Of a stretch of 64,000 nt of DNA, positions 3,361 through 23,862 are shown piece by piece. The notes below the pieces were generated by a model, which had not been told where the DNA came from, searched no databases, and worked only from the letters and a program-made list of their open reading frames with translations. This DNA comes from an uncultured delta proteobacterium (GTDB taxonomy: Bacteria > Myxococcota_A > Polyangia > Polyangiales > Polyangiaceae). Every line of letters begins with the position of its first letter. Position 1 is the first letter of the stretch. The position numbers and the translations under genes are program-made. Location: positions 608,001 to 672,000 of the forward strand of contig CAVOKF010000004.1 in the NCBI GenBank assembly GCA_963696385.1, written 5' to 3'.

Positions 3361-3365
3361 GCGTC

Positions 3366-3535
3366 TTAGTACGGCGCCCATTGAATGGTACCCAGCTTCG
3401 CTGGGCACGCCTGCTTCGCAGGCGGGCGCTGTACTAAGATGATTTCCTTGGGGCTTCGCCCCAAACCCCCAATCGCCTGCCGGCGATTGAAGTACACCGC
3501 ACGGCTGATCCCTTTGTTCTGGAGCGGTGTACTTA
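3366..3535. repeat. Structured ~170-bp intergenic element, copy 1 (MITE/REP-like or ncRNA)
   Basis: Arms TTAGTACGGCGCC...GGCGCTGTACTAA and AAGTACACCGC...GCGGTGTACTT with internal hairpins; inverted homolog at 23691-23862. Confidence 0.85.
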
Positions 3536-3567
3536 CGCCCGAATGCATTCGGGCGGACCCTCGCGGG

Positions 3568-6258
3568 ATGATCGAGTCGTCCCCGGGTGTTTCAGCCCAC
3601 GATAGCGTGGGTATCGCGTCTCGCCGCCCGCTCGAGTCAGCGCGAAGCGCGAGGCTCGCCGCTGTCCTGGCGGCCTCGTTGCTTGGTGGGTGTGCTTTCC
3701 AGAGGTCCCATCCAACGGCGCCGGCCGTCGTGGCAGCGGTCGCGCCGCCGATGAGCGCTTCGTCGGCCGCTCGTTGGGCGGTGTCGAAGACGGAGCCTGC
3801 GCGCTCGCATGCGGTCGCAGTGCTGGAGCACAAAACTCTCGGGCCCTTTGTCGCTCGTGGAAGTTCCACGGGGCTGGCTGCTTGGATCGCGCCTGCCGAA
3901 AAGGGAGGCGGCGAGGAGCTCGTCGTCATTCCGCTGGCGGAAGACGGGGCGCCGATGCACGACGCGCGAGGGATCGCGCGCGTGCCTCAGGAGGCGACGT
4001 CGCTCGTCATTCAGCCCGCAGGCGGGAAGCTCGGCGGATGGTTCGTGGCCTGGAGCGCTCTGCTGGATCGCGGCGAATCGCTTACTGTCGTTGGCTTGAC
4101 GCCCGAGGGCACCGTCCGAGGGGCGGCGGCCGACGTGCAGCGCACCAGCGATCACATCCGGTGGTTTCAAATCGTGCCGACCCAAGACGGCGGCTTATGC
4201 GTTTGGGCCGAGGAGACCACGGCGGGCGACGCCAACGTGCTGGCGGTGGGCATGGACGTCGATGCAAAAGTCCACGGGCAACCGGTGCGGGTGGCCCGCG
4301 GCGTGGACCGGTGGCAGACGGTCCCGGCCGGTCGAGGAGCCGCGCTGGCACTCGTGGCGGTTGGCCCCGTCGACGATCGAATGCGTGCCGGCGGGAATTT
4401 GACATGGCAGCGCCTCGATGCGGACGGTCATCCAGACGGAGCCAGTGTGCTTGTGACCGGGCGGCCCACCGTCAGCGGAGACGTCGATGTCGTTCCCATC
4501 CGTGACGGTTGGCTGATGGCCTGGACCGACCGGACCGGCGAAGATCCACAGGTTATGCTCGCCGCGGTCGACGCTCGAGGGCATGTGCGCGGACCGGCGC
4601 CTGCGATGAACGCGGTAGGCGGATCCACCGTCGTAGACCTTGCCGCGGGACCGAAAGGTGTCGCTCTAGCTTGGGCAGAGCCGCACAGCCGTGTGCGTCC
4701 GACGAGTGTGCTTCATCTTGCGCTGGTCTCTACCGAATTGGAGCTCTCGGCTTTGCCGCTTACGTCGTTCGACATCGCGTCCGGAAGCCCACCCGAGCTG
4801 GTGGCCACCGATGTCGGATTCGCCCTTTTGGCGCTCGCCCGCTGCCGCTCCGCCGACCCGAATGCGACGTGCGCCGGATCGGTGGTGCCCACATTTACTC
4901 GTCTCGATGATCGGCTCCGGGCCGTGCAAGTCGAGCCGATGTTCACGGGCGACGAGCACGCTCCGTCATCGATTGGTTGGGGACTGCGCTGCGGCGTCGG
5001 CGGGCGATGTTTTGCTCTGGCCGCGTCGAGCGTTGCGCCAACGCCGATCTATACGGTGGACTTCCCCGTCCGCGCATCCGCCTTCTCTGCGCCGCTTACG
5101 GAGGAGGGGCCGGTTGGCGCGCCGCGCGTCACCGGGGTGGAAACGATCGCGTCGGGACAGCCGTACGAGGATCTCGCGGCCGCCCATGTGGGCGCGGGGA
5201 CGCTGGTGGCAACGCTCGCGGGCGCGCTCGACTTGCCGCGCGAACGGCGCCGGTCTCGCGGCGCTCAGATCGTACTTCAATCGGTCGATCGCACGGGGCG
5301 GCCGCTCGGCCCGGAGAGGCCCCTGACGTCGCGTGCGCTGTTGACTGGGGGTATAGCCCTCGCCGCCGGCGCGCAACCAGGCGACGGCGCCGCGATCGTG
5401 TGGGTCGGCCGAGACGAGGGGGATCCGCATGTGCACGTCGCTCGGACCGATCCGCTCGGGCATTCGATGCAGCAAGCGCGGCTTACAGACGTCGCTGGCG
5501 AGGCAAGCAGCGTTGCGGTGGCATGGGCCGGCAATGGTTGGATTGTCGCATGGGTCGACGGTCGCAGCGGCAACGGCGAGGTCTACGCCGCCAAGGTCGA
5601 TCGCAACCTCAGGCGCGTGGGTCACGAGCAGCGTCTCACGAAGGCGCCCGGCGATGCGGGGGACGTCGCCCTATCCATACGAGACGGTATCGCGTGGGTC
5701 GCCTGGAGCGATCCGCGTGAGAGTCCGCGGGAAGGAGTAGCCGACATTTTTGTGACGACGCTTCATGCCGAAGACGCCACGCGCGCCGGCGATGAGGTTC
5801 GTGTTCTCGCAACGGCCTCTCACTCCCGATCGCCGAGTCTCGCAGCGGTGCCAGGCGGAGGGGCCATACTCGCGTGGATCGAAGATGCACCCTCCGGTCT
5901 CGACGCGCCCGGAGCTGCGATGGTCGCGCGGCTCGATGCGTCGGCTCACGTCGTCGGCGTGCCTGCTGCGTTGCCATTTTCCAAAGACGAGCGGCCGACC
6001 AATGTCGTGCTGGACTCGCAGTCCGGCGATGTCCGGGCCGTGATTGCCCACGGCGGGCGCGATGGGCTAACCCTCGCGGCACTGCGGTTGGGACAGGACG
6101 CGACGCCGGTGACGACTTCGACGCTGCTCGACTTGGACGCATCCTCGTCATTCGACGTGTCCTTGGCCCTCACGACGGACGGACTGGTGTTCGATGACGT
6201 TGGATCCGCCCCTGGCGATCGTCGGGTGCGCCGGGCCGCCATCGACTGGAAGCCTTAG
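3568..6258 (+). CDS. Large lipoprotein with repeated beta-strand-rich units (probable tandem beta-propellers)
   Basis: Lipobox LLGG-C; recurring (V/I/L)AWxD motifs; start uncertain (3568 or GTG 3607). Confidence 0.8.
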   Translation: MIESSPGVSAHDSVGIASRRPLESARSARLAAVLAASLLGGCAFQRSHPTAPAVVAAVAPPMSASSAARWAVSKTEPARSHAVAVLEHKTLGPFVARGSSTGLAAWIAPAEKGGGEELVVIPLAEDGAPMHDARGIARVPQEATSLVIQPAGGKLGGWFVAWSALLDRGESLTVVGLTPEGTVRGAAADVQRTSDHIRWFQIVPTQDGGLCVWAEETTAGDANVLAVGMDVDAKVHGQPVRVARGVDRWQTVPAGRGAALALVAVGPVDDRMRAGGNLTWQRLDADGHPDGASVLVTGRPTVSGDVDVVPIRDGWLMAWTDRTGEDPQVMLAAVDARGHVRGPAPAMNAVGGSTVVDLAAGPKGVALAWAEPHSRVRPTSVLHLALVSTELELSALPLTSFDIASGSPPELVATDVGFALLALARCRSADPNATCAGSVVPTFTRLDDRLRAVQVEPMFTGDEHAPSSIGWGLRCGVGGRCFALAASSVAPTPIYTVDFPVRASAFSAPLTEEGPVGAPRVTGVETIASGQPYEDLAAAHVGAGTLVATLAGALDLPRERRRSRGAQIVLQSVDRTGRPLGPERPLTSRALLTGGIALAAGAQPGDGAAIVWVGRDEGDPHVHVARTDPLGHSMQQARLTDVAGEASSVAVAWAGNGWIVAWVDGRSGNGEVYAAKVDRNLRRVGHEQRLTKAPGDAGDVALSIRDGIAWVAWSDPRESPREGVADIFVTTLHAEDATRAGDEVRVLATASHSRSPSLAAVPGGGAILAWIEDAPSGLDAPGAAMVARLDASAHVVGVPAALPFSKDERPTNVVLDSQSGDVRAVIAHGGRDGLTLAALRLGQDATPVTTSTLLDLDASSSFDVSLALTTDGLVFDDVGSAPGDRRVRRAAIDWKP

Positions 6259-6350
6259 TTCGCAGGCAGATTTCGACTCGCTGCCGCCGACCCAGGCAGC
6301 GAGATGGCATGCGGGCTCCGATCCTTCTATCCTTGCCTGCGAACGACCCC

Positions 6351-6710
6351 ATGGGAATCGACCCGATCGGAAAAGAGGGAGCATCCATCCCGACGAGCGT
6401 CGGCGGCCCCTCTTCTGCCCTCGAAGCGCAGCGTCCTTTCGAGCTTTCCGAGGCTCCTCGGGTTGAGCCCGCTGGGCCCGCAGAGGCCCCTGCCACCAGC
6501 CTCGATCAGCTCCGCGCCGGCCGCGTCACTCTCGAGGGGTATCTCGCCCTGAAAGTCGATGAGGCGACGGTCCAGCTGGGCTCGTTGCCGAGCACGGAGC
6601 GGGAGATGATTCGGTCGGTTCTCCTCGAGCGAATAGCGAGCGATCCGATGCTCGTCGACCTCGTGCGTGCAGCAACGGGCGCCGTCCCTCGGCCGCCGCA
6701 TGACGACTGA
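6351..6710 (+). CDS. Hypothetical protein (small, helical C-terminus)
   Basis: MGIDPIGKEG... with coding-like composition; stop overlaps the start of the next gene. Confidence 0.65.
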   Translation: MGIDPIGKEGASIPTSVGGPSSALEAQRPFELSEAPRVEPAGPAEAPATSLDQLRAGRVTLEGYLALKVDEATVQLGSLPSTEREMIRSVLLERIASDPMLVDLVRAATGAVPRPPHDD

Positions 6711-7710
6711 CGCCGACGAGCCCCGGCAGAACCTCTCAGGCCTTGGTGCGAATGGGAAGGGCGGATCTCGCGCCCGCTCGAAGGGCCACAGCGCTGCCGC
6801 GAGCTTGGGTCGTCGCGGGTTCGTGCTTGGCGCCACGGCGGCAGTGGCCTGTTCGCGCGGCGAGCGCGACGCTCGGGGAGGTTCCTTGGACGGATCCGTG
6901 TCGTCGAACGTCCGGCTTCTCGAATGGGATCTCGGCTCGCAACCGTGGGGTCAAGCACGGGCAGCGGTTGTCGTGCCGACGTGGGGCGCGCCCAACGAAC
7001 GGTTTCCGCTGCTTATCGCCCTGCACGGTCGCGGCGAAGCGGTCAAGCCGCCCGCCGACGGTGCTCTCGGATGGCCGCGCGACTACGCCATGATTCGTAT
7101 GATCGACCGCCTGCGGAACGCGCCGCTTCGAGACGACGACTACGAGGGATGGGCCGACCCGCTACGTCTTGCGCAAACGAACGCTTCCCTCGCTATGCGA
7201 CCGTTCGGCGGTCTCGTCGTCGCCTGCCCGTGGCTGCCCGACTTCAGCCCAACCTCGACCGGCGAGATTGGCGCGTACGCGCGCTTCTTACTGGACGTGC
7301 TCGTGCCCCGCGTTCGGAGCCAGACGCCCGTCGTCACGTCGCCTGAGTCGACCGGCATCGACGGCGTTTCGTTGGGTGGTGTCGTCGCGCTTCGCATCGG
7401 TCTCACCTATCCGGACGCGTTCGGAGCGGTCGGCGGCATTCAGCCAGCCATCGCCGAAGGACAGACGGCACAGTGGACCGCGCTGGCGGAGGCGGCGCGG
7501 ACTCGGCGCCATGACCTGAAGCTGCGATTGGTGACGAGCTCCGACGACTATTTCCGGCGAGCCGTTCTGGCCGTCTCGCGCGCATGGGGCGCGGCGGGCA
7601 TCGGCCACGATTTGGTCGACGTGCCAGGTCCGCACGACTACGTCTTCAATCGCGGTCATGGGTCGATCGAGCTCTTGTTGTGGCACGACCGCGCGCTATC
7701 GCGCGGGTGA
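6700..7710 (+). CDS. Exported alpha/beta-hydrolase (esterase), Tat-type signal
   Basis: LGRRGFVLG twin-Arg, LHGRG oxyanion segment, GVSLGG nucleophile elbow, GPHDY His. Confidence 0.85.
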   Translation: MTTDADEPRQNLSGLGANGKGGSRARSKGHSAAASLGRRGFVLGATAAVACSRGERDARGGSLDGSVSSNVRLLEWDLGSQPWGQARAAVVVPTWGAPNERFPLLIALHGRGEAVKPPADGALGWPRDYAMIRMIDRLRNAPLRDDDYEGWADPLRLAQTNASLAMRPFGGLVVACPWLPDFSPTSTGEIGAYARFLLDVLVPRVRSQTPVVTSPESTGIDGVSLGGVVALRIGLTYPDAFGAVGGIQPAIAEGQTAQWTALAEAARTRRHDLKLRLVTSSDDYFRRAVLAVSRAWGAAGIGHDLVDVPGPHDYVFNRGHGSIELLLWHDRALSRG

Positions 7711-7799
7711 GGCCGCTTCCTGCCCGGTAGGCTGGACCATGCCGCACCCGCGGATGGAGAATGCGTCGTCGCAATTTCTGGCCACGCTACAATTGTTAA

Positions 7800-8162
7800 A
7801 TGCGGCGGCTCCTTCTGTCTCTTCCTCTTCCGCTCGGCTTGCTGTTTATGCCTGGCTTGCTGAACGCCTGCGTTGCCGAAATTCCCGATCACGTCGATCT
7901 TCAACCGGCTGCCGCAGACGTCGAATTTGCCACGGAACCGCCGAGCGCAGACGCGTACTGGCTCGTCGGGTCCGTGACCGGTGTTGCAGCGGCGCACGAA
8001 GTCGATGCGGCGCAACAAGCCGCGCGCAACGACATGCGGAACAAGGCTGCCGCGCTCGGCGCCTCGCTCGTGACCATCGACCGAGATACCGGGGAGGCGC
8101 TTCCGTTACGAGACAAGACCAAGGTCACGTTGGTGGGCAGGGCCTATAAGTCCGTCGACTGA
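7800..8162 (+). CDS. Small lipoprotein (DUF4156/BsmA-like)
   Basis: Hydrophobic N-terminus with LNA-C lipobox; ARNDMRNKAAALGA...GRAYK pattern. Confidence 0.7.
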   Translation: MRRLLLSLPLPLGLLFMPGLLNACVAEIPDHVDLQPAAADVEFATEPPSADAYWLVGSVTGVAAAHEVDAAQQAARNDMRNKAAALGASLVTIDRDTGEALPLRDKTKVTLVGRAYKSVD

Positions 8163-8190
8163 AGACTGTGGCCGACTACCATTCGCGCGC

Positions 8191-10848
8191 ATGTCGTGGT
8201 TCGTCGCGCTCGAAGCGCTCGCGCAGCGCCGTGGCGGCGACGACGCTCGCACGATTGGCGGCAAGGCGGCGCGCCTCGTGTGGCTCGAGCGTCACGGATT
8301 CGAAGTCCCTACCGCGGTCGTTCTTCCGGCGGAAGCGTTCGCCCAAGCCATTCGCCAGCTACCGGCGGGTAACGAGCCAAAGTCGCTGCTTCGCGCTGCG
8401 ACGGGGCGGACAGGGCAACTGCGCGCGGCCGAGGCTCGGCAACAGATTCTGACCGTACCCTTTCCCAAAGGTCTTGAAGGGGAGCTGTCGGCGCTTTGGA
8501 CCGCGTTAGGCACACGAGCGCCATGGGGATTGGCCGTGCGATCGAGCGCAACCTGCGAGGACGGGGACCTCGTCTCGATGGCGGGGCTGGCCGACAGCGT
8601 TCTCGGCGTGCAATCGGGCGAAGCGCTGGCCACCGCCGTACGACAGGTGTGGTCGTCGATAGCGAGTGGACGCGCGCTCGCGTACCTCGCGGCCCACGGC
8701 GTGCGCGATGTCGGCATGGGCCTCGTGGTTCAAAGAATGGTCGAAGCGCGGGCCGCGGGCGTGATGTTCACGCGCGCGCCCGATGCTCGCGCCCGAGACC
8801 CCGTCGGGGCGGACGAGCGGATCGTCAACGTGGGATTCGGTCTGGGAGCGCCCGTCGTCAATGGCGTTACCACGCCTGACGTCCTTCGGATCGATTCGCA
8901 GGGGCGACTCACTGCTGCGCTCATCGCGCACAAGGCGCGGGCGACCGTCGTGCGCGACGGTCGCGTTCAGGAAATCGACGTGGAAGCCCCGGATGCGCCG
9001 GCCCTTGGGCCAGAGCGCATCGCACAGCTCGCGCGCCTCGCGGATCGACTCGAGAAACTCGAGCCGGTTGCCTGGGACGTGGAGTTCGCATGCGACGAAG
9101 ATCGCACCTGGATCGTTCAGGCCCGTCCGGCGACCGGCAGGGGATACCCCGAAGGCGGCCATGCCGACACGGTCTGGAGCAATGTCAACGTGGGCGAGGC
9201 CCTGCCCGGGGTCGCCACACCGTTTACATGGTCGGTGGCCGGCGCGTTCAGCGAGGCCGGGTTCCGCCGCGCATTTGCCGCACTGGGGTGCCGCGTTCCG
9301 AAGAACGCCCGTCTCGTCGCCAACGTCCATGGACGGTTCTACCTAAACCTCACTCATTTCATGCGCATCGCCGCGCAAGTGCCTTTTCTCGACCCGCGTA
9401 TGTTGGTCGAGCTCGGTGGGGGTGGCGGCGCCGACGAACTTGCGACCCAAGTAAGAGGCGTGAGCCGCCGGAGCTTCTACCTGCGCCTGCCGCTCACGGC
9501 ATCGCGACTGCTGCGCGAACAAATGCGACTCCACGATGACGTCACGTCGTTCGAAGCGTTCGCCGAGCGGCAATGGCGCGCCCAGAGCGCGCTCGATTTG
9601 GCAATTTTGCCGGACGAGGGGGTCGCCCGGCGCCTGCGCGACATCCAGGCGCTCCTCGAGCGGACGGGCACGATCATGCTCACGTGCGCGTCGAATACGC
9701 TGGGGACGCACCTGGTGCTCAAAGTCGTCCTTGACCGTATCGCACCGATCGACGCCGATCGACTGGCACAGTCGCTCACGAGCGGGATCCGCGATCTGGA
9801 GAGCGCTCGCCCGGGCATCGGAATCATGCACGTGGCCGCACTCGCTCTTCGCGAACCGGAGGCCCGCGCGGTCATTGAGCGTGAGTCGACCACCGGGGTC
9901 GACGCCGTTCCGGAGGGAGCCACCCGCCGCGCGCTGCAGAGCTTTCTCGAACTGTATGGCGACCGCGCGGTGCGGGAGGTCGAACTGTCGACACCCCGGT
10001 GGAAAGAAGATCCGCGCCCGGTTCTGAGGCTGCTTCGCGCCGCGCTACGCACGGACGCCGAGCGGGTCGAGAGCACGGTCGCCCGGACCAAGGCCCAAGC
10101 CGGAGCCGAGATGGAGAAGCTCGTTTCGACGCTGAACATCGCCCAACAGACCCTCGTTCGCCATCTGGTCGCTCGCGCACAGCGCGCGGCTCGCCTGCGG
10201 GAGCGGATGCGCACTTGGGTGACCCGCGTTCTCGGAATGCTGCGCGATGCCGCGCTCGACGCGGATCGCCGTCTGCTGCGGCGCGACCCCGAGCTCGACG
10301 CGGACTGGCGCAAGCTCGTCGAGGCCGGCTCGCCCTTCGCCAGTGTGCCGAGTTCCTTTTTGTTGACCATCGACGAAGTCGTCGGGGCGCTGCGCGCTCC
10401 GCGCGCCGACCTCGTCCTCCTCGTTCGCTCGCGCCGGGCCGAGCTCGCGCGCGATCAGGCGCGGCCGGACCCGCCAGCAACGTTCGTGGGCTCGCCTCCC
10501 CCGGTCGTACTGCCACCGTCGGTCGGACCCGTCTTGCGCGGGCTGCCTGCCAGCCCGGGGGTGGTGGAAGGCAAGGCCCGCGTTCTACTCCGAGAGGATG
10601 AGATGGACGAGCTTCAGCCGGGTGAAATCCTGGTTGTGCATACGACCGACGTGGGGTGGACACCGCTTTTTCTCGTGGCTGCCGGGGTGGTCACGGAGCT
10701 CGGTGGCCCGCTGTCGCACGCGGCGGTGGTTGCGCGCGAGTTCGGGGTTCCAAGCGTGGTCAACGTCGTCGGGGCGACGCGCGCGATTCGGGTCGGCGAC
10801 GTCCTTCGGGTCGATGGCGACCGAGGCACGGTCGAGCAACTGCGATGA
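8191..10848 (+). CDS. PEP-synthase-like / rifampin-phosphotransferase-like enzyme
   Basis: N-terminal ATP-grasp (IGGKA, AVRSSA..ED, SMAG, DVEF, QARP), large central domain, C-terminal His swivel (TDVGWTPLF, GGPLSHAAVVAREFG). Confidence 0.85.
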   Translation: MSWFVALEALAQRRGGDDARTIGGKAARLVWLERHGFEVPTAVVLPAEAFAQAIRQLPAGNEPKSLLRAATGRTGQLRAAEARQQILTVPFPKGLEGELSALWTALGTRAPWGLAVRSSATCEDGDLVSMAGLADSVLGVQSGEALATAVRQVWSSIASGRALAYLAAHGVRDVGMGLVVQRMVEARAAGVMFTRAPDARARDPVGADERIVNVGFGLGAPVVNGVTTPDVLRIDSQGRLTAALIAHKARATVVRDGRVQEIDVEAPDAPALGPERIAQLARLADRLEKLEPVAWDVEFACDEDRTWIVQARPATGRGYPEGGHADTVWSNVNVGEALPGVATPFTWSVAGAFSEAGFRRAFAALGCRVPKNARLVANVHGRFYLNLTHFMRIAAQVPFLDPRMLVELGGGGGADELATQVRGVSRRSFYLRLPLTASRLLREQMRLHDDVTSFEAFAERQWRAQSALDLAILPDEGVARRLRDIQALLERTGTIMLTCASNTLGTHLVLKVVLDRIAPIDADRLAQSLTSGIRDLESARPGIGIMHVAALALREPEARAVIERESTTGVDAVPEGATRRALQSFLELYGDRAVREVELSTPRWKEDPRPVLRLLRAALRTDAERVESTVARTKAQAGAEMEKLVSTLNIAQQTLVRHLVARAQRAARLRERMRTWVTRVLGMLRDAALDADRRLLRRDPELDADWRKLVEAGSPFASVPSSFLLTIDEVVGALRAPRADLVLLVRSRRAELARDQARPDPPATFVGSPPPVVLPPSVGPVLRGLPASPGVVEGKARVLLREDEMDELQPGEILVVHTTDVGWTPLFLVAAGVVTELGGPLSHAAVVAREFGVPSVVNVVGATRAIRVGDVLRVDGDRGTVEQLR

Positions 10849-10878
10849 TCGTGAGCGCACGCTGGCGCGAGGCCGGCT

Positions 10879-11838
<960 letters not shown>

Positions 11839-12378
11839 GGGCGCGCGCCGACCAGCCGCGTCGATCGATCGACATGGGCCGTGTCTTCGATGCGGGAAGC
11901 GCGCCGGAAATCGACATTTCGCCCGCGCCGCCGGACCCGCGACCGATGGCCGAACGGTTCCAGTGGGTTTTCGATCTGCGCTGGGATCGCGGGGACGTCT
12001 GGTTGCTCGGGATTCGCACGATGGACCTTCTCAGTCCGCAACCGACGCCCCGGGTGATGGGGCGTTTTGCGCTCGAGCTCTTCGAGGGTCCGACACTCGT
12101 CGAGCGAGTCCGCTTCGACTTCCCGCTGCTTGCGTTGCCCGACGCGAGCGATGCCGGAGCGGCTCAAGGTCCCGCACTCACGCCGAAACTGCGCACACGC
12201 ATCGGAGTTGTCTTTCCCGCGACCTCGCGGGGCACTCGCTTGGACCTTTTGGACCGAGCGACGGGACGTCGTTGGTCGTTGCCGTGGCCCATCGCCGCCA
12301 CTGAACACCCGGCCCCAGCCACGCGGCCCTCGCAGTCTCGAGTGAACGGCACGAGCCCTTGACCTAAGATATCTCCCG

Positions 12379-14079: not shown

Positions 14080-14095
14080 CCAATTCGCGGGAGAG

Positions 14096-14130
14096 CTCGG
14101 CAGCTCGAGAAAACTCGGCCGCTCGAGAAA
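14096..14130. repeat. 17-bp direct repeat, possible operator
   Basis: CTCGGCAGCTCGAGAAA (14096-14112) and CTCGGCCGCTCGAGAAA (14114-14130), 16/17 identical. Confidence 0.6.
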
Positions 14131-14184
14131 GAACGTCGCTGTGACAGCAGTAGACGTCGGGCGAGACGATGCTAGATTGACAGT

Positions 14185-14433
14185 GTGGACGTAGTCCTTC
14201 GAAAGCTCGGAAAGGGCGCGCGGTCCGTGGCGGGGCGCCTGGTTCGAGCACCTCGCAAGGGCTCGGTGGTCGTGATCGAATTTCCCGACGGTATGCACGA
14301 ATACGTGACCACCCCCGTCAAACGCGTGCTGCGGCTCGCCGGCCGCGAGGTCTTCTACATCGAGACCATAAACAGCCGATATCGCCTCGAAGTTCGAGGA
14401 CGAGAGGCTGCGGCGGTCGAAGGTACCGGCTGA
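14185..14433 (+). CDS. Small hypothetical beta-rich protein, probably leaderless
   Basis: 82-aa ORF with protein-like composition; TGcTAGATT extended -10 ends 6 nt before the GTG. Confidence 0.7.
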   Translation: MDVVLRKLGKGARSVAGRLVRAPRKGSVVVIEFPDGMHEYVTTPVKRVLRLAGREVFYIETINSRYRLEVRGREAAAVEGTG

Positions 14434-14530
14434 GCGGCGCGCCCGACGCCCGCGCGACACGAGCCGATTCGGCGCTCTCTTCCTTCGAAGCGCTTGACGC
14501 TCCATGCAGCGCGGGGTCATCTTGCGCGCA

Positions 14531-14725
14531 GTGGGAAAGCACGACCGACGGAATTCCGGAAAAACGCGGCGCCTCAAGGGGCAGGTCAAGAAGAAGGCCC
14601 GGCTCAAGCGTCAGGCGCAAGAGCGCAAAGCGGCCGCTGGGCCCGGCGCGAAGAAAGCTGCGGCTCCGAAGCGCCCTTCCAAGGCTGCTGCGGCGTCGGC
14701 CATCGCAGAGAAACTCGGATCCTGA
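14531..14725 (+). CDS. Small very basic Lys/Arg/Ala-rich protein
   Basis: GKHDRRNSGKTRRLKGQVKKKARLKRQ...KKAAAPKRPSK; TTGACG -35 at 14494. Confidence 0.65.
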   Translation: MGKHDRRNSGKTRRLKGQVKKKARLKRQAQERKAAAGPGAKKAAAPKRPSKAAAASAIAEKLGS

Positions 14726-14866
14726 TCCCAGCGGTTCGCCGAGCGAGAGGCGCGACGGCCGAGTCGCGTCCCTCGGGGGTCCGTTTCCTGCTTCGCGAGC
14801 ACGTTCGGTTTTCGCTCAGTCAGGCATCGCCGGCGAGCCAGCAGGACTCCTCATGGTGGTTTGGGT

Positions 14867-15361
14867 TTAGTTCGACGTTCCAGCCAAATGGACCGTTGGA
14901 AACTGCGCGGGCGGCTTTGGCCCGGGCGGCTCTTCAAAGACGACGGGCTCTCCAAGGAGACCGATATCGCCATCGACTCGTTGCTCGGCGACCAGCTGCC
15001 ACCCGTTCGTGTCGTGCCAACTCTGCTTCAGCGTCGTGGTCCGTAGTTCCTGCTCTTCCGGCCGGTACCACTCCACGTGGACCAGAACCTCGGCGTCATG
15101 GCTACCCTTCGGATGCAGTCCCTGAAGCTCGACCTCGGCAATGCGGACCTTGGAGCCCCATGCTCGGTGGTGGGCGATGAAGTCCTGCCGCGCGGACGCG
15201 GCCACTTTCTCCGCGGCGAGCTCATTTCTCCCATAGCGGGTGTTCACGTTGAACTCCTGTGCGGTTTCTTGAGCGCGAGCCATCGGGCTCGGCAGCGCAG
15301 AACACCCGGCGACGGGAAACAAAAGCAAAGCGACGAGAGCGGCTTCCGCGAAGATGCGCAT
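14867..15361 (-). CDS. Hypothetical lipoprotein
   Basis: MRIFAEAALVALLLFPVAG-C lipobox, start 15361. Confidence 0.75.
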   Translation of the reverse strand: MRIFAEAALVALLLFPVAGCSALPSPMARAQETAQEFNVNTRYGRNELAAEKVAASARQDFIAHHRAWGSKVRIAEVELQGLHPKGSHDAEVLVHVEWYRPEEQELRTTTLKQSWHDTNGWQLVAEQRVDGDIGLLGEPVVFEEPPGPKPPAQFPTVHLAGTSN

Positions 15362-15503
15362 GGACCTTTCCGCAAAACATGGTGCCACGGGATGGGCCAA
15401 GTTGCTCGTTGCCGAATCTGGGTCGTGATTACCGGGCGGATTTCGGCCATCGACGAGCCATCCGAACGAGGATCGAGAGAGGCGCCGGCGAGCCGGACAC
15501 ATC

Positions 15504-18488: not shown

Positions 18489-18694
18489 GTCCCGCTAGAC
18501 TAGAGCACCTTTCCCCGCCGTTGATTAGGCCGTCTTGGGGCCGTCGTGGTTGCCGCCCCCCCCGAGCAGGGCTTGGCCCTCGGGCACCGGGTCAAAGCGA
18601 TCCTGCCGTGAGCCTCGCTCGACACGATCCGCCACGCCGCTCGACCCCGCGGCCAAGCCAACTTACGAATCGATGGATCGGTGCGGCATCGGGC

Positions 18695-19627
18695 TCAAAG
18701 ATCGTCGTGAAATAGCGGCTCTCGGTTCCGCACGTACCGGTAAACGAGCTGGCGCGCCTCCGCGGTGATCTCGGTGAACTGAGCCCCGAAGCCTGGCGGG
18801 GCGTCATTTCCAGCATCGCTCGGCTCGCGTCGCCACCTTACGACCGCATTGGCCTCGAACTCGTAGCCGCCCGGAAGCGATACGCGCACCCGTACGGGTT
18901 GCCCAATCTTGGGCAGTCGATACGTCGAGACGAACAAACCGCCGTGGTCGATGATGTCATTGCCCGACAGGCCCTTGTAGAAGTTGCTCGGACTGTGAGC
19001 GCCGAGCTCGGCAGTTACCGTACCCCCGTCGGAAGCCGCGGAAGCGGGGGGGCCGCCTCTCGGCGGAGCAAACGGCGCCTGGGCCGTAGCAGGCTGCGCG
19101 ACTGGCCATTGGGCGGCCTTGGCTTGCGGAGAGGGCGATTGCGCGTACTGCGCCTGAGACGGGGGCATGATGGGCGCGCGCGCGGGCTGCGCCGCGGTCG
19201 GCGGGACAGGTGGCTGCGCTGCCGGCGCAGGGCGTTCCGGTTGAGCGACTATGGTGGGCTGGAACGCCAAGCCTTGCGCGGCCGGTGCGGGCGGGATCAC
19301 CGCTTGCGCTCCCACTCGGGTCAAAGCGTGGACGGTTCCGAGCGCGCCGGCAACGGCCTCGAGAGCGGCTGCGACGGCCTGGTTTTGCGGAGGATGTGCT
19401 TGAAGCTGCGCGAGCGCACTCTGAATATGCGAGAGTGCGGCTTGCGCGCTCGCTCCGACTTGGGCTCCGCCGGAACGCTCGATCTGGTGGAGGGCGCCCA
19501 TGGCCTGGGCGATCGGTGCTGCGAGGTCAAGAATCGGGCGGGGAACGTTTGGGTCACCCTGTAGAGCGTCGAGCCCACGGGCAAGCGACTCTCGTGCAGC
19601 GCGCGCTAGCGAGACGACATCGGACAA
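18695..19627 (-). CDS. Protein with helical N-terminus, P/A/Q-rich linker and C-terminal PilZ-like domain
   Basis: SNFYKGLSGNDIIDHGGLFVST...AVVRWRR...PGFGAQF resembles myxobacterial PilZ-like domains; TTG 19627 preceded by AGGAGA (ORF track start 19723). Confidence 0.75.
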   Translation of the reverse strand: MSDVVSLARAARESLARGLDALQGDPNVPRPILDLAAPIAQAMGALHQIERSGGAQVGASAQAALSHIQSALAQLQAHPPQNQAVAAALEAVAGALGTVHALTRVGAQAVIPPAPAAQGLAFQPTIVAQPERPAPAAQPPVPPTAAQPARAPIMPPSQAQYAQSPSPQAKAAQWPVAQPATAQAPFAPPRGGPPASAASDGGTVTAELGAHSPSNFYKGLSGNDIIDHGGLFVSTYRLPKIGQPVRVRVSLPGGYEFEANAVVRWRREPSDAGNDAPPGFGAQFTEITAEARQLVYRYVRNREPLFHDDL

Positions 19628-19768
19628 GTTCGGTTCTCCTCGCGGAGCGTGGCGGGAAGATCCCCGAACCCACTCCGTCGTGACAGGCCAAGAAGGCGGC
19701 GGTGTTGCCTCAACCCCTACCATGCGATCGAACCGTAGACGCGCTCTCTGTGCAACGGGAAAGCGTGC

Positions 19769-20647
19769 TCAGGTGCGTGCATCCATGACGAGGTCCGCGA
19801 GCTCACCCGGACCGAGCAGGTCGTCGTCCTCGGTGCGGCCTTCGAGAAGCTCGACGGCGTCGTCACTGGCGCGAACAACGGCGACGCCGTCCTGGCGTAT
19901 CGCGGCTTCGGAGACGAGGAGTGCTTTGGGGTATTCTCGGGTAGGCCGAACACGCAGAAGGGTCACGAAGCGCGTCCCAATTTCCGTCCACGCGCCCGGC
20001 CATGGCGCAGCCGCCCGAACGCGTCGTTCGATCCGCTCGGCCGTCCACGACCAGCGGATCGCAAGCTCTTGATCTTCGGGCTCCGCCGCGCTCGATGCAG
20101 CGTTCTCGTCTTGAGGGATGGGAGTCGGCGCCCGCCCGTCGGCGTACCTGCGCACGACATCGCGCAACAGCGCGAGGCTCGGCCGGTCGAGAGCGCGCGC
20201 CAGTTCCCACGCGTTCCAGGTGGGTTCGATCCGAAGCTCGCGACGGGCTAAGATCGGGCCCGTATCGTACTCAACGTCGAGGCGGTGAGCCGTAACGCCC
20301 GTCATTTCGTCCCCGCAGTCGAGTGCCCAGAAATACGGGTCCGGCCCGCGGTGACGCGGCAACAGCGACGGATGCACGCCGATCGACGACGCCAGACTGA
20401 GGATCGCGGGTGGCAACTTCGTCGTCCAGAACCAGCTGACGACGAGCTCGGGTGAGGCGGCGCGCACCCGAGCAAGGGTGTCTTCTGTGTTCGCATCCGG
20501 GCGCAGCCACGTTCGTCCGGGCGCGACACGAGCCGACAGCCGGCGAAGGCCTGGCGCGCACCTGCACGCGGCCGCGTAAACGATGTCATGACCGTCGCGG
20601 TGGAGAAGCACGGCGGCGAGCGGCAGGCCAAAGAACGCAATCCTCAC
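19769..20647 (-). CDS. Methionyl-tRNA formyltransferase-like formyltransferase
   Basis: VHPSLLPRHRG, TGVTAHRL..YDTGPI and C-terminal RAAAPWPGAW motifs; divergent N-terminus. Confidence 0.85.
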   Translation of the reverse strand: MRIAFFGLPLAAVLLHRDGHDIVYAAACRCAPGLRRLSARVAPGRTWLRPDANTEDTLARVRAASPELVVSWFWTTKLPPAILSLASSIGVHPSLLPRHRGPDPYFWALDCGDEMTGVTAHRLDVEYDTGPILARRELRIEPTWNAWELARALDRPSLALLRDVVRRYADGRAPTPIPQDENAASSAAEPEDQELAIRWSWTAERIERRVRAAAPWPGAWTEIGTRFVTLLRVRPTREYPKALLVSEAAIRQDGVAVVRASDDAVELLEGRTEDDDLLGPGELADLVMDART

Positions 20648-20674
20648 CTCGCCGCTCCTCGGCGCGCTCGCGCG

Positions 20675-21796
20675 TCAGGTCGTCGTGGCGGTCGGAACCA
20701 ACACGCTCGCGGGCTCTTCGCCGGACTGACGGAGCAATGCGGTTCGGACCGCGTGCTCGCAAAGCTGCCAGAGCTGTTGGCGATCGGTGACGCGACCCAG
20801 AAAGCCAATCGGGATGCGGAAGGCGCCCTTGTCGCGCCGCCCGCCCCCGTAGGGGCGCCCTTTCTCGTCGGCCCCGAACGCTTGTTCGATCCACGCGGCC
20901 GGATCGACACTTGGAGAGTGCGTCCGGAGCGACCCTTCGATGTACTTTTCGCCGATGACTCCGTAGACCACGCACGTGTCGATGTCTTCGCGGCGCACCA
21001 AAAAATCGGCTGCCTGAGCAATCGTGTCGCGCTCCGCCTCGCTGACGAAACCCACTCCAGCCATTGCGAAGTTGCGCCGCACGACCAGCGCTTGAAGCGC
21101 GCGCGCAATGACATCCATGGCGGTCGGCGCAATGAGTCGCCGCGATAGGTCCTGCAACAAGTCCCGGTCGCACACCTCCGCAATGAGCCCTGCCGCTCGA
21201 AAGTCGGCCGCTCGCGCGAGCATGAAGTCGTCCGTGTCCGTCGACAGGCCGTGCATGAGTGCCGTAGCGATTCGTCGGTCCTCCTCGACGTCCCCATCGA
21301 GGCTCGAGAGCTCCTGCAGATATTCCACGAAGATGGTCGCCGTAGCCCCCACGTCCAGCCGCAAGTCGACGAATCGCGCCTTCGGAGGCAGCGCGGCTCG
21401 ATGGTGGTCGACGATTGTCAGCATCTCGTAGTCTCCGGCGTCGCTGAGATCCGGATCGAGCTCGTGTGCGTCGACCAGAGCCACGAAGTCGACGCGCTCG
21501 ATTTCGTGCACACTTTTGACTTTACGAAGCTCCAAGCCCAGAAGTTTTACGAGCGCGCGGTTCTCTCGGTGGCTCAATTCATGGCAATAAGCCACGGTCG
21601 TTTGGGCAACCCCGAGTCGTTGTGCGATGTGAGCTTGTGTGATGGCACAGGCAATTCCGTCCGGGTCCGGATGCCCTCGGAGCGCAATGAGCACGTGCTT
21701 TCCTCGTGCCGCGGCGAGGGCCTCGGCGAAGGCGCGGGCGCGAGACTCGGTCGTCGGCGGACTGGGCAACGCCAAGCGTCGAACGGATTCGGTCAT
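20675..21796 (-). CDS. DHH/DHHA1 phosphoesterase (NrnA-like)
   Basis: HPDPDG, LVD, IVDHH, TDT motifs, C-terminal SLR and GGG. Confidence 0.9.
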   Translation of the reverse strand: MTESVRRLALPSPPTTESRARAFAEALAAARGKHVLIALRGHPDPDGIACAITQAHIAQRLGVAQTTVAYCHELSHRENRALVKLLGLELRKVKSVHEIERVDFVALVDAHELDPDLSDAGDYEMLTIVDHHRAALPPKARFVDLRLDVGATATIFVEYLQELSSLDGDVEEDRRIATALMHGLSTDTDDFMLARAADFRAAGLIAEVCDRDLLQDLSRRLIAPTAMDVIARALQALVVRRNFAMAGVGFVSEAERDTIAQAADFLVRREDIDTCVVYGVIGEKYIEGSLRTHSPSVDPAAWIEQAFGADEKGRPYGGGRRDKGAFRIPIGFLGRVTDRQQLWQLCEHAVRTALLRQSGEEPASVLVPTATTT

Positions 21797-21928
21797 CTTG
21801 GGTGGAATGGTGGACACGTTTGCATGTATAAATCTAGCCACCCTCCCGCCACACGGATAGTGCTAACGCGCAGCCCTCGTCGAAGACCGGGAAAAAGACC
21901 TACGAATCCACTATAAGCGCGCCGGCGG

Positions 21929-23671
21929 ATGCAGGCACGTCCAGTCCTTCGCGCGCCGTCGCTGCGACTTCGGCGTACGCTTGCCGTTCCGCTTGCGCTG
22001 GCGCTTCCGCCGCTTTTTTGGGTCGTTGACGCCACCCGGCGCGCGTCCGTCACGACGCTCGGTCGCGACCAGGGAATTTTTCAGTACGTGGCGTGGGCCT
22101 TGTCGCGCGGCGCGACGGATTACCGCGACATTCGGGACGTGAACGGTCCGCTCACGCACCTGGTGCATCTCGTTTTCTTGCGGCTCGGCGGTGCGGACGA
22201 GCATCGGTTCAGGCTGCTCGATTTGGCCGTGACGGGCGCGACTTTCGCGTTCGTCGGGTGGTGTGCGCCGGGCGCATGCTCACGTCGTCTGCCGCGCGCC
22301 TTCGAACGAGCGGCCTGGGCCTTGGCCGCCTGGGTCACGCTGAGCGGGCAGTATCTCGCCTACGGGTTCTGGGATACGGCGCAGCGCGAAAGCTTCTTCG
22401 ATTGGTTCTTGCTCCCGAGCGTAGCTCTCCAGCTTATCGCGCAGAAAGCTCGCGCTGCGTCCCGAGGTCACGGTCGGGCTGCACACTGTCCGATGCGACT
22501 TCTCGTCGTGGTGGGCGCGCTCAGCGTCATCCCATGGTTCGGCAAGCCCACCTTCGCCCTGTTTACCTGCGCACAGATCGCGACCGTGTGGATGGATCGA
22601 GGCACGGCGTTGACGCCCGCGAAATCGCTGCTCGCCTTCGCGATTGGCGGAGCCGTCGGCGCGGCAACCCAATTCGCGTTCCTCGTCTCATGGGGTGACC
22701 CCGTGGCGTACGCACGCATCCAGCTCATCGACGTTCCAGCCATGTATCGGTTCATTTGGCCGAGAGCAGCGGCCGACATCTTCTCGGCCCCCTTCTTCGG
22801 GACGTACGCGATCTTCGCCATCGCGGGTGCCGTCATGTTCTTCGCGCTGATTCTGACGGGGGAGATGCCGGTTCGCACGGCTGCCGTCGCCCTCGCTCCG
22901 GTTTGCGCGCTCGTGAGCGTTGTCGTCCAGGCAAAGGGATTTCTCTACCACTTCCACCCGGTGACGGCCTGCGTCCACCTGCAGTGGCTCGTGTTTGTGG
23001 CCTGGATCTCGGAAAGAGCCGGCGTCGCGCGCAAGCGCTGGGCCGGTGCGCGCCTCGTGCCGATCGCGGTTGCGACGCTCATCTCCCTGCATGTCGGTGC
23101 GGAGTTGCTTGACTCGCCCACCATTCGCGACACCTGGCTGCTGTGGGCCGCAGAGACGCCCGAGCGCCGCGCCGCAGCGGAGTACTTCGAACATTTCGTG
23201 CGTTCCGATTTCTTCCCCACCGACATGCGCGAAGCGGCCGCCTATCTGCGCACCCACACGGCGCCGGGCGACGGCGTTCAGACCTACGGGATGGACCCGT
23301 ACGTTCTCTTCTTGTCGGCTCGCATGAGCGCGACTCCGTACATCTACGCGTACGACCTGAACGCGGATGCGGCGCTCGCGGGTGGCACCGGGGGTCGCCC
23401 CGACGCCGTGCAAGCCGATCGGATCCGCGAGATGAGAGACGCCAGAGAATCCGACCTGCTGCAGCGAGTTCGCGAACGTCCTCCCGCGGCGTTCGTGTTC
23501 ATCGACAACTCGCCGCTTCTTTCGGAGGTCGATGCATGGGACGACTTCGAGGCCCATTGCACGCGCACCGCCGCCTGGGTTCGCGCGGGGTATCGAGAGT
23601 CGGCGCGCTTCGGCCACGATCATGTCTGGCTCCGCGTCACATCCGCCCCGGTGCCCCCGCCGGGCGGATGA
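21929..23671 (+). CDS. Polytopic membrane protein, probable GT-C (ArnT/PMT-like) glycosyltransferase
   Basis: RDQGIFQY..A....G..DYRDIRDVNGP first-loop motif, many TM helices, soluble C-terminal domain. Confidence 0.65.
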   Translation: MQARPVLRAPSLRLRRTLAVPLALALPPLFWVVDATRRASVTTLGRDQGIFQYVAWALSRGATDYRDIRDVNGPLTHLVHLVFLRLGGADEHRFRLLDLAVTGATFAFVGWCAPGACSRRLPRAFERAAWALAAWVTLSGQYLAYGFWDTAQRESFFDWFLLPSVALQLIAQKARAASRGHGRAAHCPMRLLVVVGALSVIPWFGKPTFALFTCAQIATVWMDRGTALTPAKSLLAFAIGGAVGAATQFAFLVSWGDPVAYARIQLIDVPAMYRFIWPRAAADIFSAPFFGTYAIFAIAGAVMFFALILTGEMPVRTAAVALAPVCALVSVVVQAKGFLYHFHPVTACVHLQWLVFVAWISERAGVARKRWAGARLVPIAVATLISLHVGAELLDSPTIRDTWLLWAAETPERRAAAEYFEHFVRSDFFPTDMREAAAYLRTHTAPGDGVQTYGMDPYVLFLSARMSATPYIYAYDLNADAALAGGTGGRPDAVQADRIREMRDARESDLLQRVRERPPAAFVFIDNSPLLSEVDAWDDFEAHCTRTAAWVRAGYRESARFGHDHVWLRVTSAPVPPPGG

Positions 23672-23690
23672 TCGCGCCCGACACATGCGC

Positions 23691-23862
23691 TAAGTACACC
23701 GCCTCAGAACAAAGGGCTCAGCTGGGCGGTGTGCTTCAATCGCCGGGAGGCGATTGGGAGTTTGGAGCGAAGCCCCAACGAAATCACCCTAGTACGGCGC
23801 CAGCCTGCAACGCAAGGCGTACCCCGCGCAGCTCGGTACCGCTGAGCGGGGCGCTGTACTAG
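23691..23862. repeat. Structured ~170-bp intergenic element, copy 2 (inverted relative to copy 1)
   Basis: Reverse complement of 23691-23785 matches 3441-3535 at 85/95 nt; 23789-23862 carries the CTAGTACGGCGCC...GGCGCTGTACTAG module. Confidence 0.85.

What the first reader, a model, noticed from the sequence alone, without database searches (positions are those of the whole stretch)
3366..23862. Unannotated ~170-bp structured element dispersed in two inverted copies (3366-3535 and 23691-23862)
Seen: two intergenic stretches about 20 kb apart are homologous in opposite orientation. The right 95 nt match at 85/95. The left module diverges more in sequence but largely keeps its fold. Architecture: module A, a long stem (T/C)TAGTACGGCGCC...GGCGCTGTACTA(A/G) enclosing three small hairpins (four-way junction); then hairpins TTGGGGC-TTC-GCCCCAA and CAATCGCC-N4-GGCGATTG; then module B, AAGTACACCGC...GCGGTGTACTT. 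Compensatory changes are visible: TTAG/CTAA vs CTAG/CTAG, and CCAT/ATGG vs CCGC/GCGG. Both copies sit between co-directional + strand genes but in opposite orientations, which argues against a riboswitch or terminator. Inference: a non-autonomous mobile element (MITE, REP/REPIN-like) or an independently transcribed structured RNA, with its structure under selection. No transposase is present in the window.
Basis: partly seen in the sequence, partly recalled or inferred. Interest (0 to 1): 0.85.

Follow-up and report, generated by a model that had tools for sequence, protein, structure and literature searches.

The report
Miniature IS630-type transposon, two copies
The two look-alike stretches are copies of a small gene-less jumping element, present about 30 times in full in this soil bacterium's genome, so they are ordinary selfish DNA and not a new structured RNA.

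Summary
Both stretches are there, in opposite orientation. The right 95 nt match 85/95 and each strand folds far better than shuffles.

They are not a pair. A profile finds 79 matches in the 6.9-Mb genome, 30 of them near full length.

Each copy has:
- terminal inverted repeats, GTACAGCGCCCC at the left and GTACACCGCCCC at the right (reverse complement);
- a 3-bp target duplication (TNA, mostly TTA) inside C|TNA|G.

Five of 5 copies tested, including both window copies, are missing from the orthologous place in the closest relative. Three of those places hold exactly one TNA.

The same ends and the same 3-bp duplication bound a 1270-bp IS630-family insertion sequence (HTH plus DDE_3) in another family of the class. 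No cognate transposase is in this assembly.

Pairing across copies barely exceeds shuffles, and unpaired changes outnumber compensatory ones about 10 to 1. There is no Rfam match and no RAYT gene.

Verdict: a new MITE family of a known kind. The one oddity is 3 duplicated bases instead of the TA that the papers I read give for IS630.

The scan has not seen this sequence before. It has noted IS630-type MITEs with TNA duplications in four other genomes.

The parts
3366..3368 (+). Copy A, left target-site duplication (TTA), preceded by C at 3365
   Evidence: Sequence. The closest relative G003 has a single TTA at the empty orthologous site.
3369..3532 (+). Copy A, element body without duplications (164 bp)
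   Evidence: Absent from the orthologous place in G003. nhmmer score 184.7 bits, model positions 4-178.
3369..3380 (+). Copy A, left terminal inverted repeat (GTACGGCGCCCA; family consensus GTACAGCGCCCC)
3521..3532 (+). Copy A, right terminal inverted repeat (GGAGCGGTGTAC)
3533..3535 (+). Copy A, right target-site duplication (TTA)
3366..3437 (+). Copy A, module A: the left terminal repeat paired with an inverted internal copy of itself (GGGCGCTGTAC at 3424-3434), enclosing small hairpins
   Evidence: MFE fold; alignment of 25 copies.
3448..3464 (+). Copy A, hairpin TTGGGGC-TTC-GCCCCAA
   Evidence: 90.6% of cells paired over 25 copies (helix 6).
3470..3489 (+). Copy A, hairpin CAATCGCC-N4-GGCGATTG
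   Evidence: 93.5% of cells paired (helix 7).
3490..3534 (+). Copy A, module B: an internal copy of the terminal repeat (GTACACCGC at 3492-3500) paired with the right terminal repeat
23691..23693 (+). Copy B, target-site duplication on the low-coordinate side (TAA on the + strand)
   Evidence: G003 has a single TAA at the empty site.
23694..23859 (-). Copy B, element body (166 bp), inverted relative to copy A. Terminal repeats at 23848-23859 (left, in element orientation) and 23694-23705 (right)
   Evidence: (176.0 bits).
23860..23862 (+). Copy B, second copy of the duplication, now TAG (one change from TAA)

Best explanation
The two stretches are copies of a 164-166-bp non-autonomous DNA transposon (a MITE).

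Anatomy. Each copy is bounded by imperfect terminal inverted repeats, GTACAGCGCCCC on the left and GTACACCGCCCC on the right (read as reverse complement). Outside these lies a 3-bp direct duplication of the target (TNA, mostly TTA) inside a C|TNA|G site. The element has no gene.

How it moves. It is moved cut-and-paste by a transposase supplied in trans. That transposase belongs to a branch of the IS630 (Tc1/mariner-related) family with an N-terminal helix-turn-helix and a DDE_3 catalytic domain. Full-length members of this branch in related bacteria carry the same ends and make the same 3-bp duplication. This implies target cuts staggered by 3 nt, not the 2 nt (TA) that the papers I read give for the family.

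Why it folds. Each terminal repeat faces an inverted internal copy of itself, in the order right-left-right-left, and two short GC palindromes sit between the two modules. On this reading the fold is a by-product of that layout and not an RNA under selection.

Current state. No cognate transposase gene is in this assembly, so the copies here are probably stranded relics of past bursts.

Shown: copy number, ends, duplications, empty sites, and a full-length element with the same ends elsewhere.
Inferred: mobilisation in trans by that transposase branch, the 3-nt stagger, and present immobility.
For: 1. Dispersed family. 79 nhmmer matches at E<=0.01, 30 near full length, on 6 of 8 contigs at E<=1e-8, on both strands. 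Median pairwise identity of 25 full copies is 0.80, range 0.67-0.95.

2. Ends and duplications. Of 28 copies with both ends recognisable:
- 8 have identical 3-nt flanks, and 24 differ by at most one base;
- C precedes the left flank in 24 of 28, and G follows the right flank in 15 of 28;
- the variable middle base agrees in 21 of 28, and 7 pairs agree on a middle base other than T (permutation p 0.0002).

3. Empty sites in the closest relative G003, whose flanks are 87-95% identical. 5 of 5 copies tested are missing there.
- Copy A: one TTA.
- Copy B: one TAA.
- Copy at C7:454416: one TAA, with a perfect TAA/TAA in G000.
- Copy at C3:254829: C-TA-G in G003 against TTA...TTTA.
- Copy at C8:373665: no element, but the place is rearranged.

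4. Patchy range. Found in 6 of 24 other species of the genus and in 0 of 16 genomes of 16 other families. Full-length copies are in G003 and G024.

5. Link to IS630.
- The 15-mer end motif is enriched in some other genomes of the order: G085 has 94 hits against 4 for the control, mostly 100-350 bp from contig ends.
- Behind that end in G085 starts an ORF whose 105-aa homolog P0001 carries HTH_29 and HTH_28 above Pfam cut-offs, with HTH_32 and HTH_23 below cut-off. Its full-length relatives P0121 and P0145 carry HTH plus DDE_3.
- In G336 the same end abuts a DDE_3 remnant.
- G719 holds a 1270-bp element with 29-bp perfect repeats starting GTACAGCTCCCC, an orfA with HTH_29 (48.2 bits) and an orfB with DDE_3 (66.7 bits). 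Its flanks are TTA/TTA in 2 of 3 complete copies and TCA/TTA in the third.
- MITE ends against IS ends: 24 of 34 to G085 (0 of 5000 shuffles), 21 of 34 to the G336 right end (p 0.0008), 18 and 19 of 29 to G719 (p 0.003 and 0.0012).

6. The G024 and G003 variant of module B has both arms changed to the IS-type repeat GTACAGCTCCCC. This fits arms that are transposase sites.

7. Weak support for a selected fold: figures as in the observation check.
Against: - No transposase with these ends is in G000 (96% complete). No pair of repeats 250-5000 bp apart encloses a gene. P0001 finds nothing at E<=1e-8.
- G000's own IS630-type elements have other ends and C-TA-G flanks: 10-16 of 34 identities, not significant.
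- The full-length element with matching ends lies in another family of the class, and identity of the ends is only 18-19 of 29.
- Exact duplications occur in only 8 of 28 copies. The permutation test on exact matches alone gives p 0.075.
- One empty site reads C-TA-G, not C-TNA-G.
- C|TNA|G with a 3-bp duplication is a hallmark of IS5/PIF-Harbinger relatives in the paper I read (PMC4482050, passages). The IS630 papers I read give TA only (PMC2170065 and PMC8533490, passages).
- 12 pairs carry changes on both sides against 4.8 +/- 1.8 in shuffles (0 of 500 reach it). Some constraint on pairing, or subfamily structure, is not excluded.
- No empty allele was seen in two metagenome DNA runs.
Confidence: 0.8

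Rival explanations
1. It is a MITE, but it is moved by an IS5/PIF-Harbinger-type (PHIS) transposase, the group classically tied to 3-bp TNA duplications at C|TNA|G, and not by an IS630-type enzyme.
For: - The target and the duplication fit that group (PMC4482050, passages).
- G000 holds DDE_Tnp_1 elements, among them an IS5-like 251-aa gene with DUF4096 plus DDE_Tnp_1.
Against: - None of the DDE_Tnp_1 elements examined has these ends: IS-A (1478 bp), IS-B (1927 bp) and the 251-aa gene.
- Gene-bearing elements that do have these ends carry an IS630-type HTH and DDE_3 in three genomes, G085, G336 and G719.
Confidence: 0.07
2. It is a REP/REPIN-like palindromic repeat spread by a RAYT (Y1 HUH) transposase through single-stranded hairpins.
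For: - Palindrome-rich and nearly always intergenic.
- Flanking-gene arrangement over 57 matches: 24 between convergent genes, 5 between divergent genes.
Against: - No PF01797 match in the genome, while the control genomes ring.
- Copies carry target duplications, and the orthologous empty sites hold one TNA. RAYT or IS200/IS605-type insertion does not produce this (established knowledge, recalled).
Confidence: 0.02
3. It is, or some copies have become, a functional structured RNA. Examples would be a 3'-UTR stabiliser, a terminator-like element or a small RNA, with the fold under selection.
For: - Very stable fold, z about -7.
- 12 pairs with changes on both sides against 4.8 in shuffles.
- Copies cluster at gene 3' ends: 23 of 79 element ends touch a predicted stop codon.
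- Element-like pieces occur in metatranscriptome contigs.
Against: - No Rfam match. The best hit is E 0.14, below gathering score.
- No promoter-like or terminator-like site in 3200-3900.
- Both strands fold equally well, and copies sit in both orientations relative to neighbouring genes.
- Percent paired is 88.9 against 87.9 in shuffles, and unpaired changes are about ten times the compensatory ones.
- The RNA contigs come from other copies and cannot show ends or strand.
Confidence: 0.06

Closest known systems
IS630-family insertion sequences (IS630, ISY100) and the Tc1/mariner group
   Same: Full-length elements with the MITE's ends encode an N-terminal HTH (HTH_29/HTH_32) and a DDE_3 domain, as two frames in the G719 element. 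They have short terminal inverted repeats. The target is a palindrome centred on T..A: C-TNA-G here, CTAG for G000's own IS630-Y.
   Different: The papers I read give a TA target and a 2-bp duplication for the family (PMC2170065 and PMC8533490, passages). Here 3 bp (TNA) are duplicated.
RUP (repeat unit of pneumococcus), the MITE attributed to IS630-Spn1
   Same: A roughly 100-bp gene-less element with ends like an IS630-family element, in many intergenic copies. This is recalled, and it is also named in earlier notes of this scan. I did not test it.
   Different: RUP duplicates TA (recalled). I made no sequence comparison. This element is longer and built of two fold-back modules.
PIF/Harbinger-IS5 (PHIS) elements and their MITEs, for example the NuwaII group
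   Same: Target C|TNA|G with a 3-bp duplication (PMC4482050, passages).
   Different: The transposase family differs. Elements with these ends carry DDE_3, not DDE_Tnp_1/DDE_Tnp_4.
Zator transposons and the bacterial TP36 transposases
   Same: They are placed within or next to IS630 in published trees (PMC7386202 and PMC8533490, passages). I recall 3-bp duplications for Zator, but I did not see that in the passages read.
   Different: I made no tree or alignment, so membership is untested.
REP/BIME/REPIN repeats
   Same: Palindromic, intergenic, and frequent behind gene 3' ends.
   Different: No RAYT gene. Target duplications and terminal inverted repeats are present.

Membership tests
MITE (non-autonomous class II transposon) | Small size, no transposase gene | tested here: met
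   164-166 bp between the duplications. The consensus is 172 nt including both flanks.
MITE (non-autonomous class II transposon) | Terminal inverted repeats | tested here: met
   GTACAGCGCCCC against GTACACCGCCCC, 11 of 12. 20 of 34 over a longer stretch, p 0.004.
MITE (non-autonomous class II transposon) | Target-site duplication | tested here: met
   3-bp TNA. 8 of 28 copies exact and 24 of 28 within one mismatch. The middle base covaries, p 0.0002. One TNA sits at three empty sites.
MITE (non-autonomous class II transposon) | Many dispersed copies | tested here: met
   79 matches, 30 near full length.
MITE (non-autonomous class II transposon) | Presence/absence at orthologous sites | tested here: met
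   5 of 5 G000 copies tested are absent in G003. One G003 copy is shared and one is reduced to a remnant in G000.
MITE (non-autonomous class II transposon) | An autonomous element with the same ends | tested here: inconclusive
   Not found in G000. Found in G719, in another family of the class, with 18-19 of 29 end identity. Remnants are in G085 and G336.
IS630-family derivative | Ends shared with elements that encode HTH plus DDE_3 | tested here: met
IS630-family derivative | TA target with a 2-bp duplication | tested here: not met
   3 bp are duplicated in the MITE and in the G719, G336 and G394 elements.
IS5/PIF-Harbinger-derived MITE | 3-bp TNA duplication at C|TNA|G | tested here: met
IS5/PIF-Harbinger-derived MITE | Ends shared with a DDE_Tnp_1-type element | tested here: not met
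   The three DDE_Tnp_1 elements of G000 that I examined have unrelated ends.
REP/REPIN | A RAYT (Y1_Tnp) gene in the genome | tested here: not met
   0 matches to PF01797. The genome is 96% complete.
REP/REPIN | Insertion without target duplication | tested here: not met
   Duplications are present.
Any Rfam RNA family | A match at or above the family's gathering score | tested here: not met
   None at the element with gathering thresholds. In E-value mode the best is 19.1 bits against a gathering score of 35, E 0.26, and the lowest E is 0.14.

The most novel reading that the evidence does not exclude
These ends mark a branch of the IS630 family, spread over several families of this bacterial class, that integrates at C|TNA|G with a 3-nt stagger and not at TA. 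The branch may not yet be described in print. If so, it would sit between the textbook IS630/Tc1-mariner chemistry and the 3-bp duplications that I recall for eukaryotic Zator elements. The MITE would also be unusual in carrying four copies of the transposase site, arranged as two fold-back modules.
Probability: 0.35. Interest if true: 0.45.

Novelty: new member of a known kind. Interest (0 to 1): 0.27.

Why it matters
- It removes a candidate 'new structured RNA'. The fold follows from the layout of the transposon ends.
- It gives annotators of these soil and peat genomes a repeat family to mask. The family breaks metagenome assemblies: contigs end inside it, and word depth there is 176-485 against 11 in the flanks.
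- It adds one more case in which IS630-type ends go with a 3-bp TNA duplication. A specialist could settle that point with one transposition assay.
- Copies often sit exactly on stop codons and behind convergent genes. They may therefore shape 3' untranslated regions, but nothing here shows that they do.

Tried and rejected
- Public genome contigs. An exact 20-mer scan gave 4 loci (Planctomycetota, Dehalococcoidia and Hydrogenedentota MAGs). Only the 20-23 nt matched the profile, so these are chance hits. The window's own records are withheld there, so I did not learn the taxon.
- Plasmid collection, distant mode: no match.
- Protein atlas look-up of the polyphosphate kinase, to get a taxon: uninformative.
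- Paralogous empty sites within G000: none clean.
- RNAalifold on the MAFFT alignment gave an odd long-range structure at -15.9 kcal/mol.
- My first gene finder, based on GC3, was too strict (30% coding). I replaced it with a codon log-odds finder.
- Sequencing runs. Two DNA and two RNA metagenome runs were laid on 2600-4400. No joint (no empty allele) appeared, and there was no cover bridging the element. RNA contigs carrying element pieces belong to other copies. A discrete transcript is neither shown nor excluded.
- PF13358 found nothing in G085, G394, G134 or G156. These are fragmented MAGs in which high-copy repeats are often lost, so this says little.
- The 55-aa N-terminal ORF alone matched no Pfam family. 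The 113-aa G336 ORF matched HTH_32 and NF033545 only below their cut-offs.
- Literature. Searches for IS630 with TNA, 3-bp or CTNAG terms turned up no paper describing an IS630-family element with a 3-bp duplication. ISfinder and TnCentral could not be consulted, so 'not in print' is not established.
Full report
**What is there.** I read both stretches and aligned them in opposite orientation.
- Over 3366-3535, 143 of 172 columns agree.
- The flanks are unrelated: 6 of 23 and 12 of 25.
Its complement folds as well, at -89.4 kcal/mol (z -6.85).
- By my own codon-based gene calls (5819 genes, 85% coding), both copies lie between + strand genes. The gene after copy B is polyphosphate kinase.

**Not two copies but a family.**
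- The window is C4:608001-672000 of a 6.94-Mb, 66% G+C assembly in 8 contigs.
- BLAST finds 44 matches.
- A profile of 26 full copies finds 79 at E<=0.01, 57 at E<=1e-8, and 30 that span at least 150 of 182 model positions, 16 on + and 14 on -.
- Twenty-five full copies have a median pairwise identity of 0.80, range 0.67-0.95.
- The rest are truncated. Some hold the left module only, others the right part only. One place holds a tandem array of about 60-bp units.

**Ends and target duplication.** The alignment shows the layout C-TNA-[GTACAGCGCCCC ... GGGGCGGTGTAC]-TNA-G. Among the 28 copies with both ends recognisable:
- the two 3-nt flanks are identical in 8 and differ by at most one base in 24;
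- C precedes the left flank in 24, and G follows the right flank in 15;
- the middle base agrees in 21;
- seven pairs agree on a middle base that is not T (TCA/TCA, TGA/TGA and the like). Only 0.02% of permutations reach this.

The permutation test on exact 3-nt matches alone is weaker, p 0.075.

**Empty sites.** The closest relative held, G003, has flanks 87-95% identical. All 5 G000 copies that I tested are missing at the orthologous place.
- Copy A: G003 reads C-TTA-C once, and G000 reads C-TTA-[element]-TTA-C.
- Copy B: one TAA in G003, against TAA-[element]-TAG in G000.
- Copy at C7:454416: one TAA, against TAA/TAA, with a 13-nt difference just beyond it.
- Copy at C3:254829: G003 reads C-TA-G, against TTA...TTTA, so this one is not clean.
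- Copy at C8:373665: G003 has 140 nt of other sequence there.

In the other direction, one G003 copy is shared with G000 as a truncated copy. Another is represented in G000 by only the first 12 nt of the element plus TCAG.

**Range.**
- BLAST with the element finds it in 6 of 24 other species of the genus: G003, G024, G013, G015, and weakly G006 and G009.
- It finds it in 0 of 16 genomes from 16 other families of the order.
- G003 and G024 hold full-length copies.
- These tallies include one genome flagged unpublished (G010). Nothing rests on it.

**What moves it.** G000 has no RAYT gene. It has many DDE_Tnp_1 elements, but the three kinds I examined have unrelated ends. No pair of MITE-type repeats 250-5000 bp apart encloses a gene.

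The 15-nt end motif, one mismatch allowed, was scanned over 401 genomes of the order. It is frequent in G000 (37 hits, control 2) and raised in a few genomes of other genera and families. With a relaxed pattern, G085 has 94 hits (control 4), most of them 100-350 bp from contig ends. That is the mark of a repeat that breaks the assembly.

The evidence that the partner is an IS630-type element:
- G085. Behind the end in G085 starts an ORF. Its only close homolog in the large protein set, P0001 (105 aa, 89% identity), carries HTH_29 and HTH_28 above Pfam cut-offs, with HTH_32 and HTH_23 below cut-off.
- Wider relatives. An exhaustive HMMER search with P0001 gives 4503 proteins at E<=0.001. Two full-length ones, P0121 and P0145, carry HTH plus DDE_3.
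- G336. The same end abuts a DDE_3 remnant at 28.1 bits, just under the cut-off of 28.6. Two derivatives of about 650 bp keep both ends, with flanks CAA/TAA and TTG/TTA.
- G394. It holds a 49-bp mini-element with TTA/TTA flanks.
- G719. A class-wide search with P0001 led to this genome. Its element is 1270 bp long with 29-bp perfect repeats that start GTACAGCTCCCC. An orfA carries HTH_29 (48.2 bits) and an overlapping orfB in another frame carries DDE_3 (66.7 bits). Flanks are C-TTA...TTA-G in 2 of 3 complete copies and TCA/TTA in the third. A fourth copy is interrupted.
- End identities. The MITE's right end matches the G085 ends at 24 of 34 (0 of 5000 shuffles). Its left end matches the G336 right end at 21 of 34 (p 0.0008). 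Both ends match G719 at 18 and 19 of 29 (p 0.003 and 0.0012).
- G000's own elements. G000 has 12 DDE_3 matches, in two kinds. Both kinds have different ends, one of them with C-TA-G flanks, and they match the MITE ends at only 10-16 of 34, not significant.

So the partner family is IS630, but the partner itself is not in this assembly.

**The fold.** Module A is the left terminal repeat facing an inverted copy of itself. Module B is an internal copy of the repeat facing the right terminal repeat. In G024 and G003, both arms of module B read like the IS-type repeat. That is what transposase sites would do.

Over 25 copies and 59 pairs:
- 88.9% of cells pair, against 87.9% in column shuffles and 32-40% when the partners are slid;
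- 14 of 1448 cells have changes on both sides;
- about 11% of cells are unpaired;
- 12 pairs show a double change, against 4.8 +/- 1.8 in shuffles. Subfamilies could produce this.

Rfam has nothing at gathering score, and nothing better than E 0.14 in the permissive mode. The consensus scans find no promoter-like or terminator-like site in 3200-3900.

**Where copies sit.** All counts here rest on my rough gene calls.
- Of 57 matches at E<=1e-8, 5 overlap a predicted gene by more than 30 nt.
- 24 lie between convergent genes, 28 between co-directional genes and 5 between divergent genes.
- Of 79 element ends, 23 have a predicted stop codon within one base of the repeat edge.
- Among CTNAG sites that are intergenic or on a stop codon, 466 of 2186 (21%) are on a stop codon.
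- The two window copies are not on stop codons.

**Reads.** The stretch occurs in soil, peat and wetland metagenomes. I laid two DNA and two RNA runs on it.
- Contigs stop inside the element.
- Summed word depth there is 176-485, against about 11 in the flanks of run X2.
- No joint across the element was seen.
- RNA contigs hold the upstream gene and pieces of other copies.

**Compared with what is known.**
- The papers I read give TA and a 2-bp duplication for IS630, ISY100 and the whole Tc1/mariner group. One branch with TATA is noted (PMC2170065 and PMC8533490, passages only).
- C|TNA|G with 3 bp is described for IS5/PIF-Harbinger relatives (PMC4482050, passages).
- A review of prokaryotic MITEs holds no occurrence of the term IS630 (PMC10969869, term search and the passages it returned).
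- Zator and the bacterial TP36 transposases are placed beside IS630 (PMC7386202, passages). That Zator duplicates 3 bp is my recollection only.
- My four literature searches found no IS630-family element with a 3-bp duplication. ISfinder could not be consulted.
- Earlier notes of this scan describe IS630-type MITEs with TNA duplications in four other genomes. I reached the same reading from my own calls before I looked them up. They are not independent proof. This sequence itself was not seen before.

**Verdict.** This is a new family of an ordinary kind of element, a MITE. It belongs to an IS630 branch that duplicates three bases. It is not a new structured RNA.

Noticed in passing
window 43324-48666, 51727-51800: A complete rRNA operon: 16S at 43324-44879, two tRNAs at 45064-45137 and 45165-45237, 23S at 45461-48418, 5S at 48550-48666. 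A further tRNA lies on the - strand at 51727-51800.
   Followed up: no
G000:C7:49921-50142 (L043:422-643): A tandem array of four units of about 60 bp. Each unit is made of the second GC hairpin plus the left arm of module B of the MITE.
   Followed up: partly
L046:1782-1936; G000 C8:45910-46070, C5:1470851-1471008, C3:539759-539918, C8:121420-121572: A second, unrelated dispersed repeat of about 155 bp (79-82% identity). Two of its copies lie within a few kb of MITE copies.
   Followed up: no
G000, 79 element ends genome-wide: 23 of 79 element ends touch a predicted stop codon (within -1 to +1 nt). The background is 21% for permissible CTNAG sites. The TNA target in a 66% G+C genome is often a stop codon, and the duplication would keep it. 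This rests on my own rough gene calls.
   Followed up: partly
G000:C8:386340-386430: At the place where G003 has a full copy, G000 keeps only 12 nt of the left end followed by TCAG. This is either an internal deletion or an excision footprint.
   Followed up: partly
L079 (G394:C387:286-340): A 49-bp mini-element made of little more than the two terminal repeats, with perfect TTA/TTA flanks.
   Followed up: no
L138-L140 (G085 contig ends): The second end type of the G085 element (GTACAGGTCCCC) is followed by an inward-reading ORF. I recall its like as a four-helix-bundle, '23S rRNA intervening sequence' type protein. No family search was run.
   Followed up: no
G000 genome-wide: Insertion-sequence inventory: a 1478-bp element with a 462-aa DDE_Tnp_1 gene (about 13 copies); a 1927-bp element with a 571-aa gene (4 copies); and two IS630-type elements of 1185 bp (2 full copies plus 1 partial) and about 1201 bp (7 copies, one of them split), the latter with C-TA-G flanks.
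   Followed up: partly
L002:1676-1700 (G000:C8:373838 onward): The copy most like copy A (96% identity) is followed at once by another left-end repeat (GTACAGCGCC) that shares the TTA. It looks like the stump of a second, abutting insertion.
   Followed up: no
P0017 (549 aa): A relative of the transposase HTH domain is fused behind a DruA (Druantia) domain.
   Followed up: no
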